Assembly (NCBI RefSeq): GCF_026571515.1
Contig: NW_026859228.1
Location: forward strand, 248,001-312,000
DNA length: 64,000 bases
Source of the DNA: Ruditapes philippinarum
Lineage: Eukaryota
Direction of reading: 5' to 3'
The position numbers were made by a program. Each line of letters opens with the position of its first letter. Within the stretch, counting starts at the first letter, position 1. Shown piece after piece: positions 12,001-60,000 of this stretch.

Positions 12001-15000
12001 ATCGAATTTCATTAGGTTTGTTTGGTTGGATCGGAGAGCAGAGCACGAAAATTTTAGAAGTACACTTGCAGGTTTTCTTCAAGTATTGATCAATGGAGTT
12101 GTTTCTTTTGTTTCCTGTAAATCTTTTGACAAATAAACGGGACGGCTTAACGGCATGCCCTCTAACCTTGTTTTATGTTATGTTTTTCTTTAAAGCTGCT
12201 TGAATGCAGGTGTATGTTGGAGGATAATAAATCATTTATGCTCGTTTGAGAGCATCGAATAAGAGCATAAAATAGGTTATTCTCATACAATGTATATAAG
12301 ATTACAATTTATGTGATTTTGAAACAAATATCAATATAAATAAATACTTTTTATGTAATATTTTAAGGCTGGTATGGAGGTCCCTTGGAAATTAGATCTA
12401 GGAGCTGTAAGTGCCGAAGACTCGACATTAGTATGCCTCCCGTGTGATATTGATGGTTTGAAGGAACCTGCTTATGGCTTCTGCCAGGACTGCCAAGAGC
12501 ACTTATGTGAAACATGCTTCAAACACCATAGACGGCCACGCCAAATGAGAAATCATGTCCTTGTTGAAAAAGAATACATGCCAAAGACCCAGGTAAATGC
12601 ACCTACAACATCTGAAGATATGGAAGATTTTTGGACGAAACACCAAGACAAACCACTAGAATTCTATTGTAGGGATCACACATCTGTGGCTTGTTATGTG
12701 TGCGTTACATTAGAACATAAACAGTGTAACGTGGACTATATTCCTGATGTTTCTGGAAACCTGTCTGATGAGATGGCTGATATATTAGAACAAATGGAAT
12801 CGTTGATAACGAAATGTAAATCAAACATAGAATATGCTTGCAAAGCTGCGCAACATCTAGACCAAAGTCATGCAAAAGTTGTTGAAGATATCAAAGTCTT
12901 CAGGAAAGAGATAAATAAATGTTTGGACAGAATGGAAACCAGAATATTAAATGAAGCTGACACAATTGTAAAAGAAGCAAAATGTAAACAGGAACTCATA
13001 TTAAATGCTTGTTTAGAGATAACGGAAGAACTTGAATGTTCACATGCGTTGTTAAGGTCATTTAAAGAAGAGATCAAGCAAACTAAGCGTTTTATTAAGA
13101 TTAAAAACATTAGAAAAAGTCTGCCAATATTGACAGATAAGGAAAAGACTGTATTGCATGCAAATACAGCGAACGATTGTGTTCAATTTACCCGCAACGC
13201 AAGCATTATAGATTTTCTGAAGACTGAGAATAACTATGGAACATTGTCAACATTTGTGCAACCATACCCAGAAAGAGCAATAGATTTACAATATATAGAT
13301 ACAATAGACATGAAACAGACATCAGACAAAGAAAAATGTAACATTACCGGTATGGTTTTGATTGCTCCTACAAAAATGGTTGTTGCTGATAACAGTAACA
13401 AAAAATATAAAACTGATCGACGTTCAGAAAAATGTAATTGTAACTGTGGTAGAGATGTCTTCACGTCCGTTGGATATTATAACTCTTCCAGAAAAAAAGC
13501 TTGCTTTAACTTTGTATGGTGAAACAATTGTTCAGATATGGTCTTATTCTGATGCAAAACTTTCATTAGATCAGTGTATAGATGTAAGAGAATCGTGCAA
13601 TGGTGTTGCTTATAGCCAGGATAAATTGGTTGTCTCTTGCAAAAAATCAAAGAAAATAATCATTTTGAATTTTCAAGGAGAAATTCTCGAAGTTCTTGGT
13701 TCTCCTACTTTATTCTATGGGCCTGTCAGAATTTTCATCAGAAGGGATGAAACGTTTATATATGTATCGGATGGGGTTTGGAGACAAAATAGCAAGGTTT
13801 TGAAAATTGATTGGAAAGGAAATGTCAAAACCATTTTTGAAGACCCAAGATATAATATTCCTTACGGTCAACAACAATTAGAAGATGAGACTATACTGGT
13901 ATGTTACAAAGACAGTAACACTATTCTGAGACTGTCAAGCAGCTTAAAGAGATGTGATATTATTGGACTAGAGAAAGCAAATATTTATTTTCCAACAGCT
14001 TTAACATACTGTGACAGAGAACAAAAACTGTATGTTAGTTGTTCATCCGATATAGGGTCACCGCAGGCTGATACTGTTAAAGTATTCCATGTAAAGTGGA
14101 TATAATCATTACAAAGAAAGAAATATGTGGTCATCAATCTATGTATAAAATTGATAATTTCTTTAGTTTGTTTTCTTCATATACTTTATGGATATACTGA
14201 TATTTAATTGCACAGCTCAAGGGTTTAATGATCTGCAGAGAGTCACTGAGTTGAAGGAAACTGCCAAAATAACCTTAGAATATATATAATAATAACTCTA
14301 TAAGATATTTATGCTGTTGAACACTATAATTGCAAAATTAATTGGCCATTTCCTTATATGTCCCCCTTCGCTAGGTTTATATGCCGTGTCAGAGACTGTT
14401 CATTATGAAAATCTTCCAAAAACCTAAAAAGACAAGTCAGTTGTGTAATAATTGTGTAGATCTCGAATCAGAGCTACTCCATGTTATGCTCAAATGACCA
14501 ATGAGAGCCAAATAAATTGTGAAAAAGCCTGTCATTTTAACGTATGAAATGAATCATAAAAAGTTAAAATTTCTGTGCTCAAATACTGATATGGTTAGAA
14601 AAACAGAAAATATATGTTGTAATATGTTGAAAACTAGAAACAATGCTTTGTAATGTAAATCTACTTAATGTTTTGAATTATGTATATATGTTGAACTTTA
14701 TATTGTACAGTGTACGCTTTTACCTATTACTGAATGTTTTAATTTTGTATTAGAGTCTGAATTCTTCAATCAATCATTTAGGTTTTACTAACTTAGAAAT
14801 TCCTTGCTAATCCGTTTGCTAAAATTCCTTAGTGATAATACATAGTTTATGGTGCTTTTAACTCTTGTGCATCTTGTTCTGCTTTTTTCAAAATCATGTC
14901 TCATTTTATCTTTTCATCTATCACTTAACCCTAGTAATATCATACAGTGGCTGTCAAAATTAACAAGGAATGTCTTACCATTATTTTGAGGATTATACAT

Positions 15001-57000: not shown

Positions 57001-60000
57001 AGCACTCATGGTATCTTTGTTTGAAGGATAGTTACATGATATGCTCTCTTTAATTAAAATATAAATAACCGTTCACATTATGTGTGACAGTCTATATACT
57101 CTTCATTATTGTATTTTTTACCTTTACCTCTAGACAACCGGGATATCGTTATTTGAAGTCAGTACCCATCGATTTACGATTTGATCACCTAAAACATTGA
57201 GTTGACAATTTGTGCACCATATTTCTACAGTATCGACCCAATTTGTTTTGTCTTAAACTGATTGCATGCTACTGATTAAATATTATCTAATTGTTGTTAT
57301 TTCTGAAAGTAAATACTTGTTGAAAACAAATAGCACCCTTTACAAATTTTTGTTTCATAAGAATTCATTTCAATAAAAATGATAGCAAATATCTCTCGGA
57401 AGACAGTGCCCAGGCCTTTCAAGCAGATATTAATAGAATATATTGTATAAATTTTATGTAAAAAATGACAAAGTTATTTATCTAATATGTATACTAATAC
57501 AAAGAGTCTTAAAGTTATTACAAATAAACCTGATTTTTCATATACGTGTATAGACAATTTTAATTAGTTAGTGTTAATTTCATCTTCAAATTATGCACGA
57601 ACGGAAGTCGACATGGCTTTCTTTTGGGTGACCCCCAATTATTTTCTCTTACTTTAAGATCATGATAGATTAAAATGAATTCGATATGCGATTACATTCT
57701 GCTTTATGTAACACTAGCATACGCCTTTAATTGAAATACAAGTAGAAAAACTAACATATAAAGTTTTAGAATTAAAGTATAAATTGATAATATTACTTTA
57801 TCAGGTCAAATATTTTTAAAAGGGTATTTCTGAAAATATGCCAGTAATTTGATTGCCCGTCAGAAATTGATACTAGTGTTTTAAATGTAAATGGATCGGT
57901 CGAATTCCATGTATTTAACATCAAAATTGATATGATTTTGAAAAAATAATTCTTCACATATCATATTTTTTTCAGACAGGAATGGAGGTTCCTGGTAAAT
58001 TAGGTCTAGGAGATCTAAATGATGATGACTCGACATTAATATGTCTTCCATGTGACAGTGATGGTTTGAAGGAACCTGCTTATGGCTTCTGTCAGGACTG
58101 CCAGGAGCATCTATGTGAAACGTGCTACAAACATCATAGACGTGCACGTCCATTTAAAAACCATGTACTCATTGACAAAGAATCCATGCCAAAGACCAGG
58201 GTAAATGCAGCAACAACATCTGAGGATACGGCCGACTATTGCACGAAACACCAAGACAAACCACTAGAATTTTATTGTAGGGATCACACATCTGTGGCTT
58301 GTTATGTGTGCGTTACATTAGAACACAAACAGTGTAAGGTGGACTATATTCCTGATGTTTCTGGAAACCTGTCAGATGAGATGGCCGATATATTAGAACA
58401 AATGGAATCGTTGATTAAAAAATGTAAATCAAACAAAGAATATGCTTGCAAAGCTGCGCAACATCTAGACCAAAGTCATGCAAAAGTTGTTGAAGATATC
58501 AAAGTCTTCAGGAAAGAGATAAATGAATGTTTGGACAGAATGGAAACCAGAATATTAAAGGAAGCTGACACAATTGTAAAACAAGCAAAATGTAAACAGG
58601 AAACCGTATTAAATGCTTGTTTAGAGATAACGGAAGAACTTGAATGTTCACATTCATTGTTAAGGTCATTTAAAGAACAAAACAAGCAAAATAAGCTTTT
58701 TATCGAGATAAAAAACGTCGGAAAAAGTCTGCCGATATTGATAAATAAGGAAAAGAATGTATTGGATGCAAATACAACAAACGAATGTATTCAATTTACC
58801 CGCAGCACAAGCCTTATAGATTTTCTTAAGACTGTGAATAATTATGGAATATTGTCAACATTTGTACAGCCGTGTCAAGATAGAGCAATAGATTTACAAC
58901 ATATAGAAACAATAGACATGAAACAGACATCAGAAAAAGAAAAATGTAACATTACTGGTATGGTTATGATTGCTCCTACGAAAATGGTTGTTGCTGATAA
59001 CATAAACAAAAACGTAAAACTGATCGACGTTGAGAAAAACGAGGTTGTAACAGAGGTAAAGATGTCTTCACATCCGTTGGATGTTATAACTCTTCCAGAT
59101 AAAAAGCTTGCTGTAACTTTGTTGGATGAAACGTTTGTTCATATATTGTCTTATTGTGACGCGAAACTTTCATTAGTTCAACGTATAGATGTCAGAGAAA
59201 AGTGTCATGGTGTTGCTTATGGCCAGGATAAATTGGTTGTATCTTGCAATAAATCAAAGAAAATAATCATTTTGAATCTTCAAGGAGAAATTCTCGATGT
59301 TCTTGGTTTTCCTGCTATCTTCTATGGGCCTCGCAGAGTTTTGATCAGCAAGGATGAAACGTTCATATATGTATCGGATACAGATGGGAGTCAAAATAGT
59401 AAGGTTTTGAAAATGGATTGGAAAGGAAATATTAAAACCGTTTTTGAAGAACAAAGTTATAAATTTCCTTACGGCCAACAACAATTAGAAGATGACACTA
59501 TACTAGTGTGCTACAGACACAGTAACACTATTCTGAGACTGTCAAGCAGCTTAAAGAAATGCGATATTATTGGACTAGAGAGAGCAAATATTTATTTTCC
59601 AAAAGCTGTAACATACTGCGACAAAGAACAAAAACTGTACGTAAGTTGTTCATCAGAGAAAGAAGACTGGCGGGCTGATATTGTGAAAGTATTCCATGTT
59701 AAATGGATATAAATATTACAAAGGAATATGTCGTTATCAAAAAACTGACATTGTCTTTTCTTCGTAAACTGATACGTGATAAATAAAGATGAGTGTTCAT
59801 ACAGTAGGACCTTGCAGGACCAGGTTATGTTAAGTAGGGAACAATAGCTTTCATGCATCAATTTGGCGAGTCATAGAGCAATGAGATTTTTACTTGGCTT
59901 GGGCCAGTACACTATAAATGTATCTGTACAAGGTGAAATAGGGTAGAATCATTTTTGTTGGAAAACTTTTTGTAATCATTAAAGATGTTGTTTAAATTAT

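What the first reader, a model, noticed from the sequence alone, without database searches (positions are those of the whole stretch)
12374..59712. TRIM paralogs are patchwork mosaics, suggesting segmental gene conversion or shuffling
Seen: the grouping of copies changes along the gene. The N-terminus and upstream DNA group {1,4} (LDLGA.SAE, RRPR.MRNH) against {2,3,5} (LGLGDLNDDD, RRARPFKNH). The start of the coiled coil groups {1,5} (MADIL..YACKAAQHL) against {2,4} (YVSKAAQNL). The start of the propeller groups {1,3,5} (MKQTS..EKCN) against {2,4} (SEKEKSN). A later blade groups {1,4} (WRQNSK.LKID) against {2,3,5}. The tail and SINE group {2,3,4,5}. Inference: the near-identical B-box2 DNA serves as a recombination platform, and the intronless CDS lets even dead copies donate segments.
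Basis: partly seen in the sequence, partly recalled or inferred. Interest (0 to 1): 0.7.

Follow-up and report, generated by a model that had tools for sequence, protein, structure and literature searches.

The report
Mosaic clam TRIM-NHL gene array
Five tandem copies of a clam B-box/coiled-coil/NHL-propeller gene are real patchworks of one another, best explained by DNA exchange between neighbouring copies, a process already well known from other TRIM and immune-type gene clusters.

Summary
The window (about 30% GC, no N, not human; named relatives are Ruditapes philippinarum) holds five same-strand copies of a single-exon, RING-less B-box1/B-box2/coiled-coil/NHL-propeller gene. Copies 2 and 5 are intact; copies 1, 3 and 4 are broken.

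The change of grouping along the gene is far beyond chance:
- PHI-like permutation, p=0.0002.
- A GENECONV-like scan finds three globally significant tracts, all involving copy 5.
- None of the 15 topologies is accepted in all five segments.
- A breakpoint search beats all 1000 permutations.
- Synonymous-only sites show the same signal.

Copies 2 and 5 have 97-99% identical flanks but an 82-90% identical CDS interior (dS 0.03 to 0.35). This patch-within-conserved-flanks pattern points to interlocus gene conversion on an array built by unequal crossing-over.

Not shown:
- That B-box2 is a recombination platform. One strong breakpoint abuts it; that is all.
- That dead copies donate. Direction is unresolved.
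- That the tail repeat is a SINE.
- That the junctions exist on single reads.

The short propeller patches are not individually significant. This is a new member of a known kind, of moderate interest.

The parts
12374..14105 (+). Copy 1 (A-type 5' end). It reads through to the end except for a +1 A in an A-run at about 13400. It has its own tail, unrelated to those of copies 2-5.
   Evidence: tail unalignable, 47-62% mismatch
23754..25484 (+). Copy 2, intact 576-aa ORF (B-type 5' end).
   Evidence: Pfam B-box
33736..35434 (+). Copy 3 (B-type 5' end), broken by a 32-bp deletion after 34168.
49032..50921 (+). Copy 4 (A-type 5' end, B-type tail). It has a +1 T at 50483, and an unrelated 377 bp (50501-50877) replaces about 226 bp of the propeller. 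It also has TGG>TGA and a 4-bp insertion near the end.
57982..59712 (+). Copy 5, intact 576-aa ORF and the clearest mosaic.
57990..58369 (+). c5 segment nearly identical to c3 (33744-34123): 4 mismatches at 76 polymorphic sites.
   Evidence: global p=0.0005; dS c3-c5 0.02; coordinates
58375..58652 (+). c5 segment closest to c1 (12767-13044), at the start of the coiled coil: 7 mismatches at 50 polymorphic sites.
   Evidence: global p=0.006; AU test rejects the global tree here, p=0.0085
59247..59708 (+). c5 3' propeller segment closest to c2 (25019-25480). The similarity continues into the tail.
   Evidence: 4-taxon run (global p=0.0005); dS c2-c5 0.03 for aa 490-576
58273..58363 (+). B-box2 core in c5 coordinates. 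It holds the two longest runs identical in all five copies (45 and 25 bp). The equivalent stretches are 12665-12755, 24045-24135, 34027-34117 and 49323-49413.
56045..57981 (+). Upstream flank of c5, 96-99% identical to that of c2 (about 21.8-23.75 kb).
59713..60342 (+). Tail block shared by c2 (25485-26113, 97%), c3 (35435-36025, 90%) and c4 (50922-51497, 92%).
53217..54632 (+). R block, repeated once per unit (also 857-3217, 18110-20106, 30696-32635, 41449-43833). It carries decayed fragments of a more diverged propeller C-terminus.

Best explanation
A tandem array of RING-less TRIM-NHL-like genes in a venerid clam is evolving by ectopic recombination.

Unequal crossing-over built and reshuffled the 9-15 kb repeat units, so the flanks of the units themselves give discordant groupings. 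Interlocus gene conversion then copied patches of roughly 0.2-0.8 kb between copies. As a result the nearest relative of a copy changes along its CDS.

Shown: the mosaic itself, its statistical significance, its presence at synonymous and non-coding sites, and the patch-within-conserved-flanks structure of copy 5 relative to copy 2.

Inferred: that the mechanism is non-reciprocal conversion rather than double crossover, that some donors lie outside the window, and that the exchange reassorts N-terminal, coiled-coil and propeller variants among paralogs.
For: Split map: of 120 informative columns, '14' sites fill columns 335-677, '35' sites 570-804, '15'/'24' sites 862-960, with further short clusters.

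Permutation tests:
- PHI-like p=0.0002 on 99 informative CDS sites, and p=0.0002 on the 4-taxon whole CDS.
- After collapsing same-pattern sites within 6 bp, p<=0.001.
- Synonymous-only sites (70 polymorphic, 26 informative): p=0.009, 0.0018 and 0.010 for k=2, 3 and 5.

GENECONV-like scan:
- 3 of 10 pairs are globally significant: c3-c5 p=0.0005, c1-c5 p=0.006, c2-c5 5' p=0.03.
- In the 4-taxon run, 3 of 6 pairs are significant, including c2-c5 columns 1728-2345 at p=0.0005.

Topology tests:
- AU tests accept none of the 15 topologies in all five segments. The global best tree ((1,4),2,(3,5)) is rejected in columns 853-1130, p=0.0085.
- A parsimony breakpoint search with two breakpoints (804/855 and 1521/1523) gives 49 extra steps. 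The minimum over 1000 permutations optimised in the same way is 55.

Flanks against interior: c2 and c5 are 96-99% identical over 56045-58012 and 59413-60342 but 84-89.5% identical over 58413-59212. dS for c2-c5 runs from 0.03 (aa 490-576) to 0.35 (aa 331-430).

Age of the tracts: they are 97.5-99% identical, not 100%, as expected for old exchanges rather than assembler switches.

Unit-level discordance: upstream blocks group {1,4} and {2,5}; R blocks group {1,4} and {3,5}; the downstream E block groups {3,4}.

Family-wide mosaic at protein level: c5 aa 113-370 matches P0006, c2 aa 1-112 matches P0013, and c4 aa 273-372 matches P0003.
Against: - Only five DNA sequences were available. The paralogs outside the window were seen as proteins only.
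- In the propeller (columns 1131-1928) 56% of informative site pairs are incompatible and only nearest-neighbour clustering is significant (p=0.0175; p=0.19-0.60 for wider neighbourhoods). Fine patches there cannot be told from homoplasy.
- 7 of 10 pairs have no globally significant tract, including 1-4, 2-4 and 3-4.
- After excluding the 5' block the PHI-like p is only 0.035-0.05.
- The AU segments were chosen, so those p values are optimistic.
- No read-level or second-assembly check was possible. A search for short independent proteins spanning c5's 5' junction found none above 85% identity.
- Donor and recipient are unresolved for every tract.
- Pairwise omega is mostly 0.1-0.6, so there is no direct sign that the exchange is driven by diversifying selection.
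Confidence: 0.8

Rival explanations
1. Assembly artefact: the mosaic copies are chimeric consensus sequences made when an assembler switched between near-identical tandem paralogs.
For: - The locus is a tandem array with 85-99% identical units, which is the kind of place where assemblies err.
- c1's only lesion is a homopolymer +1, which hints at residual consensus errors.
- Each window protein is seen on one contig only.
- No independent sequence spans c5's 5' junction.
Against: - Tracts differ from their partner copy by substitutions (4 of 76, 7 of 50 and 16 of 93 polymorphic sites), not 0 as a read switch would give.
- The copies differ by 10-15% in the body, which is easy for long reads to separate.
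- The unnamed record P0006 matches c5 with 0-3 mismatches per 40 aa across aa 113-370, spanning the end of the c1-like tract.
- Mosaic relations also appear among RefSeq paralogs outside the window.
Confidence: 0.07
2. Only reciprocal unequal crossing-over within the CDS, with no gene conversion. Each mosaic copy would be a hybrid gene formed at a crossover between misaligned units.
For: - Unit flanks are discordant. c4 has an A-type 5' side (like c1) but a B-type tail and an E block like c3, which fits one crossover inside or near the gene.
- The array itself must have grown by unequal exchange.
Against: c5 has c2-like flanks on both sides (96-99%) around c3-like, c1-like and unassigned interior segments. 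That needs several nested double crossovers, whereas conversion patches explain it directly.
Confidence: 0.1
3. No recombination: rate variation along the gene plus parallel substitutions under selection mimic a mosaic.
For: - Homoplasy is high in the propeller, where 56% of informative site pairs are incompatible.
- Some pairs have omega near 1 in aa 431-489.
Against: - The signal is present in codons whose amino acid is the same in all five copies and in non-coding upstream DNA.
- dS for one pair varies more than tenfold between segments.
- Flanks of c2 and c5 are 1-5% diverged while the interior is 10-18% diverged.
- Multi-base shared differences such as columns 1087-1091 are unlikely to be parallel.
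Confidence: 0.03

Closest known systems
Recombination or gene conversion among tandem vertebrate TRIM paralogs: primate chromosome 11 TRIMs, zebrafish btr, squamate harbingerTRIMs
   Same: Clustered TRIM-family paralogs whose phylogeny changes along the gene.
- Han et al. [quoted passage not shown]
- Boudinot et al. 2011 (PMC3137616, passages read) found seven GARD breakpoints in btr B30.2.
- The reptile preprint 10.1101/2025.06.23.661133 (passages read) reports five GARD breakpoints and proposes that TRIM clusters sample diverged sequences.
   Different: - Here the host is a bivalve.
- The proteins lack a RING and end in an NHL propeller, not PRY-SPRY.
- The CDS is a single exon.
- The strongest case is a young duplicate pair whose interior is much older than its flanks.
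- No antiviral or other function is known.
TRIM-NHL proteins (TRIM2/3, TRIM71/LIN-41, Brat, Mei-P26)
   Same: - B-box(es), a coiled coil and a six-bladed NHL propeller.
- The AlphaFold2 model (pLDDT 85.4) matches the TRIM2 NHL domain with target TM 0.80.
- The N-terminal half matches the TRIM28 RBCC region, E=3.6e-10.
   Different: - No RING and no filamin domain.
- Only about 17% identity to TRIM2 in the propeller.
- It belongs to a lineage-specific tandem expansion rather than to a conserved single-copy regulator.
Intergenic exchange in plant NLR clusters (e.g. RPP8) and the sea urchin Sp185/333 cluster
   Same: Tandem recognition-type gene families in which unequal crossing-over and gene conversion produce mosaic paralogs. 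Both papers were seen only as search listings (10.1101/694240 and PMC5103432).
   Different: The protein families are unrelated. The comparison rests on listing-level reading and general knowledge, not on a test made here.

Membership tests
TRIM / RBCC family | N-terminal RING finger | tested here: not met
   Pfam finds no RING in c2 or c5. The protein starts 20 residues before B-box1, and the model has no RING fold.
TRIM / RBCC family | B-box zinc fingers | tested here: met
   B-box2: PF00643 scores 33.2 bits against a cut-off of 24.1. B-box1: PF22586 scores 23.1 bits, below its cut-off of 27. The Cys/His columns are invariant in all 60 relatives. There are matches to TRIM28 and MID1 B-boxes.
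TRIM / RBCC family | Coiled coil after the B-boxes | tested here: met
   The model has helices at 130-232 and 236-263. The alignment to the TRIM28 RBCC region covers aa 15-199.
TRIM-NHL subgroup | C-terminal six-bladed NHL beta-propeller | tested here: met
   The top Foldseek hits are the NHL domains of TRIM2, TRIM3, Brat, Mei-P26 and Lin41, with target TM 0.74-0.82. Pfam NHL is not detected in c2 or c5 themselves, but PF01436 is precomputed for the paralog P0007.
Interlocus gene conversion | Phylogenetic incongruence between adjacent segments, beyond chance | tested here: met
Interlocus gene conversion | Signal at synonymous and non-coding sites, so not convergence | tested here: met
   synonymous-only sites; upstream DNA; dS by segment.
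Interlocus gene conversion | A patch bounded on both sides by unexchanged flanks | tested here: met
   c2 against c5: flanks are 96-99% identical and the interior 84-89.5%, or down to 82% in 100-column windows.
Interlocus gene conversion | Non-reciprocal transfer with an identified donor and recipient | not testable with these tools
   There is no outgroup DNA and no population data. Protein outgroups polarise single motifs only.
Interlocus gene conversion | Junctions present on single DNA molecules | not testable with these tools
   No reads were available. The search for independent short proteins across the junction was negative.
tRNA-derived SINE (the tail repeat) | tRNA-like head recognised by a tRNA model | tested here: not met
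   ARAGORN finds 0 genes. Rfam finds nothing at gathering threshold and no tRNA match at E<=1 in 59850-60350. By eye, and from recall, the minus strand has A-box-like and B-box-like motifs (sequence printed).
tRNA-derived SINE (the tail repeat) | Dispersed independent copies | tested here: inconclusive
   Within the window it occurs only in the four homologous tails. The rest of the genome was not available.

The most novel reading that the evidence does not exclude
The array works as a germline cassette system. Ectopic conversion does not homogenise the copies. Instead it overwrites the interior of young duplicates (c2 and c5, whose flanks are 1-5% diverged) with 10-18% diverged segments from other family members, possibly including broken ones. 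That would continually create new combinations of B-box1 type, coiled coil and NHL-propeller blades for a bivalve recognition repertoire. It would be a protostome, TRIM-NHL counterpart of pseudogene-templated diversification.
Probability: 0.2. Interest if true: 0.6.

Novelty: new member of a known kind. Interest (0 to 1): 0.35.

Why it matters
Bivalves carry very large lineage-specific expansions of TRIM-like genes: one search lists 137 relatives at E<=0.001, mostly from two clams. How these families diversify is little studied. My three literature searches listed no paper whose title or abstract opening addressed gene conversion in bivalve TRIM genes.

- This locus is a clean worked example showing that trees of such paralogs cannot be read as simple duplication histories.
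- Selection scans on these families need recombination-aware methods.
- Annotated 'pseudogenes' may still take part in sequence exchange.
- The general phenomenon is textbook for tandem immune-type families, so the result is useful rather than surprising.

Tried and rejected
- Independent confirmation of c5's 5' junction. A search for short proteins over c5 aa 40-230 gave 11 hits. The best are 85% identical over 52% of the region (P0126) and 70% over 94% (P0121). None is a c5-like fragment, so the junction remains unchecked.
- SINE identification. ARAGORN, Rfam at gathering threshold and Rfam at E<=1 on 59850-60350 gave no tRNA-like hit.
- The 377-bp replacement in c4 has no other copy in the window, and its origin was not found.
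- Pfam did not name the C-terminal domain of c2 or c5. The fold search did.
- Direction of transfer. Comparison with outgroup-like proteins P0007, P0009, P0010 and P0014 shows that 'YACKAAQHL' (c1, c5, P0006) is derived and 'YVSKAAQNL' ancestral. This does not say which of c1 and c5 was the donor.
- Diversifying selection. Pairwise omega is mostly 0.1-0.6. Values near 1-1.5 in aa 431-489 mostly involve broken copies, so no claim is made.
- The paper PMC8905726 was checked for TRIM content. Its only 'trim' hits are the verb.
- The prokaryote genome-contig collection was not used because it is irrelevant here. Supplementary files of the cited TRIM papers (GARD tables) could not be consulted.
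Full report
**What is there**

The window is AT-rich (27-35% GC in 4-kb windows) and has no N. I do not take it for human. Named relatives at 79-87% identity are RefSeq proteins of the Manila clam Ruditapes philippinarum. Several are listed with the same longest-contig length (337,378 bp) as the window's own proteins.

Five copies of one gene lie on the + strand:
- c1: 12374-14105
- c2: 23754-25484
- c3: 33736-35434
- c4: 49032 to about 50921
- c5: 57982-59712

c2 and c5 are intact 576-aa single-exon ORFs. 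The other three are broken:
- c1 is interrupted only by one extra A in an A-run near 13400, which could be a consensus error.
- c3 has a 32-bp deletion after 34168.
- c4 has a +1 T at 50483, an unrelated 377 bp (50501-50877, unique in the window) in place of about 226 bp, and a TGG>TGA change near the end.

**What the protein is**

- Pfam finds B-box2 above threshold, B-box1 just below threshold, and no RING.
- The N-terminal half matches the TRIM28 RBCC region (E=3.6e-10).
- An AlphaFold2 model built on 60 relatives (mean pLDDT 85.4) shows two B-boxes, a long coiled coil (130-263) and a beta-propeller (303-575).
- The best structural matches of the propeller are the NHL domains of TRIM2, TRIM3, Brat, Mei-P26 and Lin41, with target TM 0.74-0.82.

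So 'TRIM' holds only loosely. This is a RING-less B-box/coiled-coil/NHL protein from a large clam-specific expansion.

In a MAFFT alignment of the five copies with flanks (ATG at column 460, stop at column 2349) the CDS is almost gapless. There are 120 informative columns in columns 331-2420, and the splits are strongly clustered:
- {1,4}: 49 biallelic sites, almost all in columns 335-677 (upstream DNA, N-terminus, B-box1)
- {3,5}: columns 570-804
- {1,5} and {2,4}: columns 862-960
- {3,4}: columns 1087-1091
- {2,4}: columns 1403-1423
- {1,4} again: columns 1862-1896

The tail after the stop codon is shared by c2-c5 (90-97% identical to c5) and absent from c1.

**More than chance**

- PHI-like statistic, 5000 permutations: 0.349 against 0.487 on 99 informative CDS sites, p=0.0002. 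The 4-taxon whole-CDS run also gives p=0.0002. Without the 5' block it weakens to p=0.05 (columns 700-1928) and p=0.035 (columns 860-1928).
- Collapsing same-pattern sites within 6 bp, to guard against multi-nucleotide mutations, leaves p<=0.001 for the CDS. Within columns 1131-1928 only nearest-neighbour clustering survives (p=0.0175; wider neighbourhoods give p=0.19-0.60).
- A GENECONV-like scan finds global significance for 3 of 10 pairs: c3-c5 columns 468-847, p=0.0005; c1-c5 columns 853-1130, p=0.006; c2-c5 columns 468-662, p=0.03.
- In the 4-taxon run, 3 of 6 pairs are significant, including c2-c5 columns 1728-2345 at p=0.0005. The other 7 of 10 pairs have no significant tract, including 1-4, 2-4 and 3-4.
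- AU tests of all 15 topologies on five segments accept no topology everywhere. The overall best tree ((1,4),2,(3,5)) is rejected in columns 853-1130, p=0.0085. The segment borders were chosen, so these p values are optimistic.
- A parsimony breakpoint search does not have that problem, because its permutations are optimised in the same way. Two breakpoints (804/855 and 1521/1523) give 49 extra steps, against a minimum of 55 in 1000 permutations.
- Using only codons whose amino acid is identical in all five copies (70 polymorphic, 26 informative sites) gives p=0.093, 0.009, 0.0018 and 0.010 for k=1, 2, 3 and 5. Convergent protein evolution is therefore not the cause.

**The most telling pattern**

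Units 2 and 5 are recent duplicates. Their flanks are 96-99% identical over 56045-58012 and 59413-60342. The interior 58413-59212 is only 84-89.5% identical (down to 82% in the 100-column windows).

dS for c2-c5 changes strongly along the gene:

| Segment | dS, c2-c5 |
|---|---|
| aa 1-82 | 0.20 |
| coiled coil and first propeller blades | 0.29-0.35 |
| aa 431-489 | 0.09 |
| aa 490-576 | 0.03 |

Within that interior, c5 is nearest to c3 up to column 847, with dS 0.02 over aa 1-82. It is then nearest to c1 over columns 853-1130. It returns to c2 from about column 1728.

Patches inside conserved flanks are what interlocus gene conversion produces. Reciprocal crossovers alone would need several nested double events. 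The tracts differ from their partners by 1-2.6% in substitutions, which argues for age rather than assembler switching.

**The array level**

The units (9-15 kb) share blocks in the same order, but the blocks group differently:
- Upstream block: {1,4} and {2,5}
- R block: {1,4} at 87% and {3,5} at 92%
- Tail: {2,3,4,5}
- Downstream E block: {3,4} at 87.5%, with c1 at 70%

c4 thus joins an A-type 5' side to a B-type 3' side, as expected from unequal crossing-over. Both processes seem to have acted.

The N-terminal region keeps two old lineages (dS 0.52-0.66 between {1,4} and {2,3,5}). From B-box2 onward all copies are within dS 0.07-0.37 of one another. The body has therefore been exchanged across lineages while the 5' end has not.

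**Beyond the window**

Protein sequences of further family members show the same behaviour:
- c2 aa 1-112 differs from P0013 by 0-1 residues per 40.
- c4 aa 273-372 differs from P0003 by 1-3 residues per 40.
- c5 aa 113-370 differs from the unnamed record P0006 by 0-3 residues per 40. P0006 then departs exactly where c5 becomes c2-like.

This suggests that some donors lie outside the window. It also gives partial independent support for c5's middle segment. P0006 starts inside B-box2, so it does not cover the 804-855 junction. A targeted search for short proteins across that junction found nothing close.

B-box2 is the most conserved DNA:
- It holds the longest runs identical in all five copies (45 and 25 bp).
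- Pairwise mismatch is 0-5% at columns 751-850.
- Third-position variability is 6 of 34, against 18 of 42 in B-box1 and 61 of 186 in the propeller.

One strong breakpoint and the A/B boundary flank it. That is consistent with exchange resolving in the best-matched stretch. But it is only two events, breakpoints are by construction localised to invariant gaps, and the third strong breakpoint is elsewhere.

Whether broken copies act as donors is open. Outgroup-like proteins show the c1/c5 motif 'YACKAAQHL' to be derived, but not who gave it to whom. An intronless CDS is not needed for conversion.

The 'SINE' was not recognised by ARAGORN or Rfam and occurs only in the four homologous tails. Its A-box-like and B-box-like look is my recollection, not a test.

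**Comparison with what is known**

Recombination among clustered TRIM paralogs is established:
- Seven breakpoints in zebrafish btr B30.2 (PMC3137616, passages).
- Five in squamate harbingerTRIMs, with the idea that clusters sample diverged sequence (10.1101/2025.06.23.661133, passages).

Plant NLR and sea urchin Sp185/333 clusters are conceptually similar (listings only). In my searches I found no paper on gene conversion in bivalve TRIM-like genes. This statement rests on those three searches of the held library only. The case is a new member of a known kind.

**What stayed unchecked**

- Reads or a second assembly
- Supplements of the cited papers
- Expression

Noticed in passing
2489-2776, 43277-43393, 53847-54013 (inside the R blocks 857-3217, 18110-20106, 30696-32635, 41449-43833, 53217-54632): Each repeat unit carries, upstream of its gene, a decayed fragment resembling the last propeller blades of a more diverged family member (35-55% aa identity to c5 aa 465-570 by tblastn, found in 3 of the 5 R blocks). 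The ancestral duplicated unit apparently already held a dead older copy.
   Followed up: partly
13395-13400: Copy 1's only disabling lesion is one extra A in a run of A's. The rest of the copy reads in frame to the normal stop. It may be a homopolymer consensus error, so copy 1 may be a live gene.
   Followed up: partly
50501-50877: The 377 bp that replace part of copy 4's propeller are unique in the window. By eye they begin with a GTAAGT-like motif and contain a TTACAG-like motif. Their origin is unknown.
   Followed up: partly
about 20 bp before each ATG (e.g. 57960-57981, 23732-23753): All five copies have a T-rich run ending in AG a few bases before the start codon. This suggests a 5'UTR intron whose acceptor lies just upstream of a single coding exon. 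No transcript data were available.
   Followed up: no
36106-36429 and 51589-51900 (+), in the E blocks after copies 3 and 4: Two related ORFs of 107 and 103 aa with a Cys-rich C-terminal part. They are part of the duplicated downstream block. They were not searched and may be a remnant of a mobile element.
   Followed up: no
47213-47521 (+): A 102-aa ORF in the long, copy-4-specific upstream spacer. It could be a fragment of a retroelement (recollection only, not searched).
   Followed up: no
32761-33169 and 32905-33314; 63218-63391: A local tandem duplication with a period of about 144 bp (90% identical) lies just upstream of copy 3, where its homology with units 2 and 5 stops. A 174-bp palindromic self-match lies near the window's end.
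   Followed up: no
25683-26015 (-): A 110-aa minus-strand ORF runs through the shared tail repeat of copy 2. It is most likely a chance ORF across the repeat.
   Followed up: no
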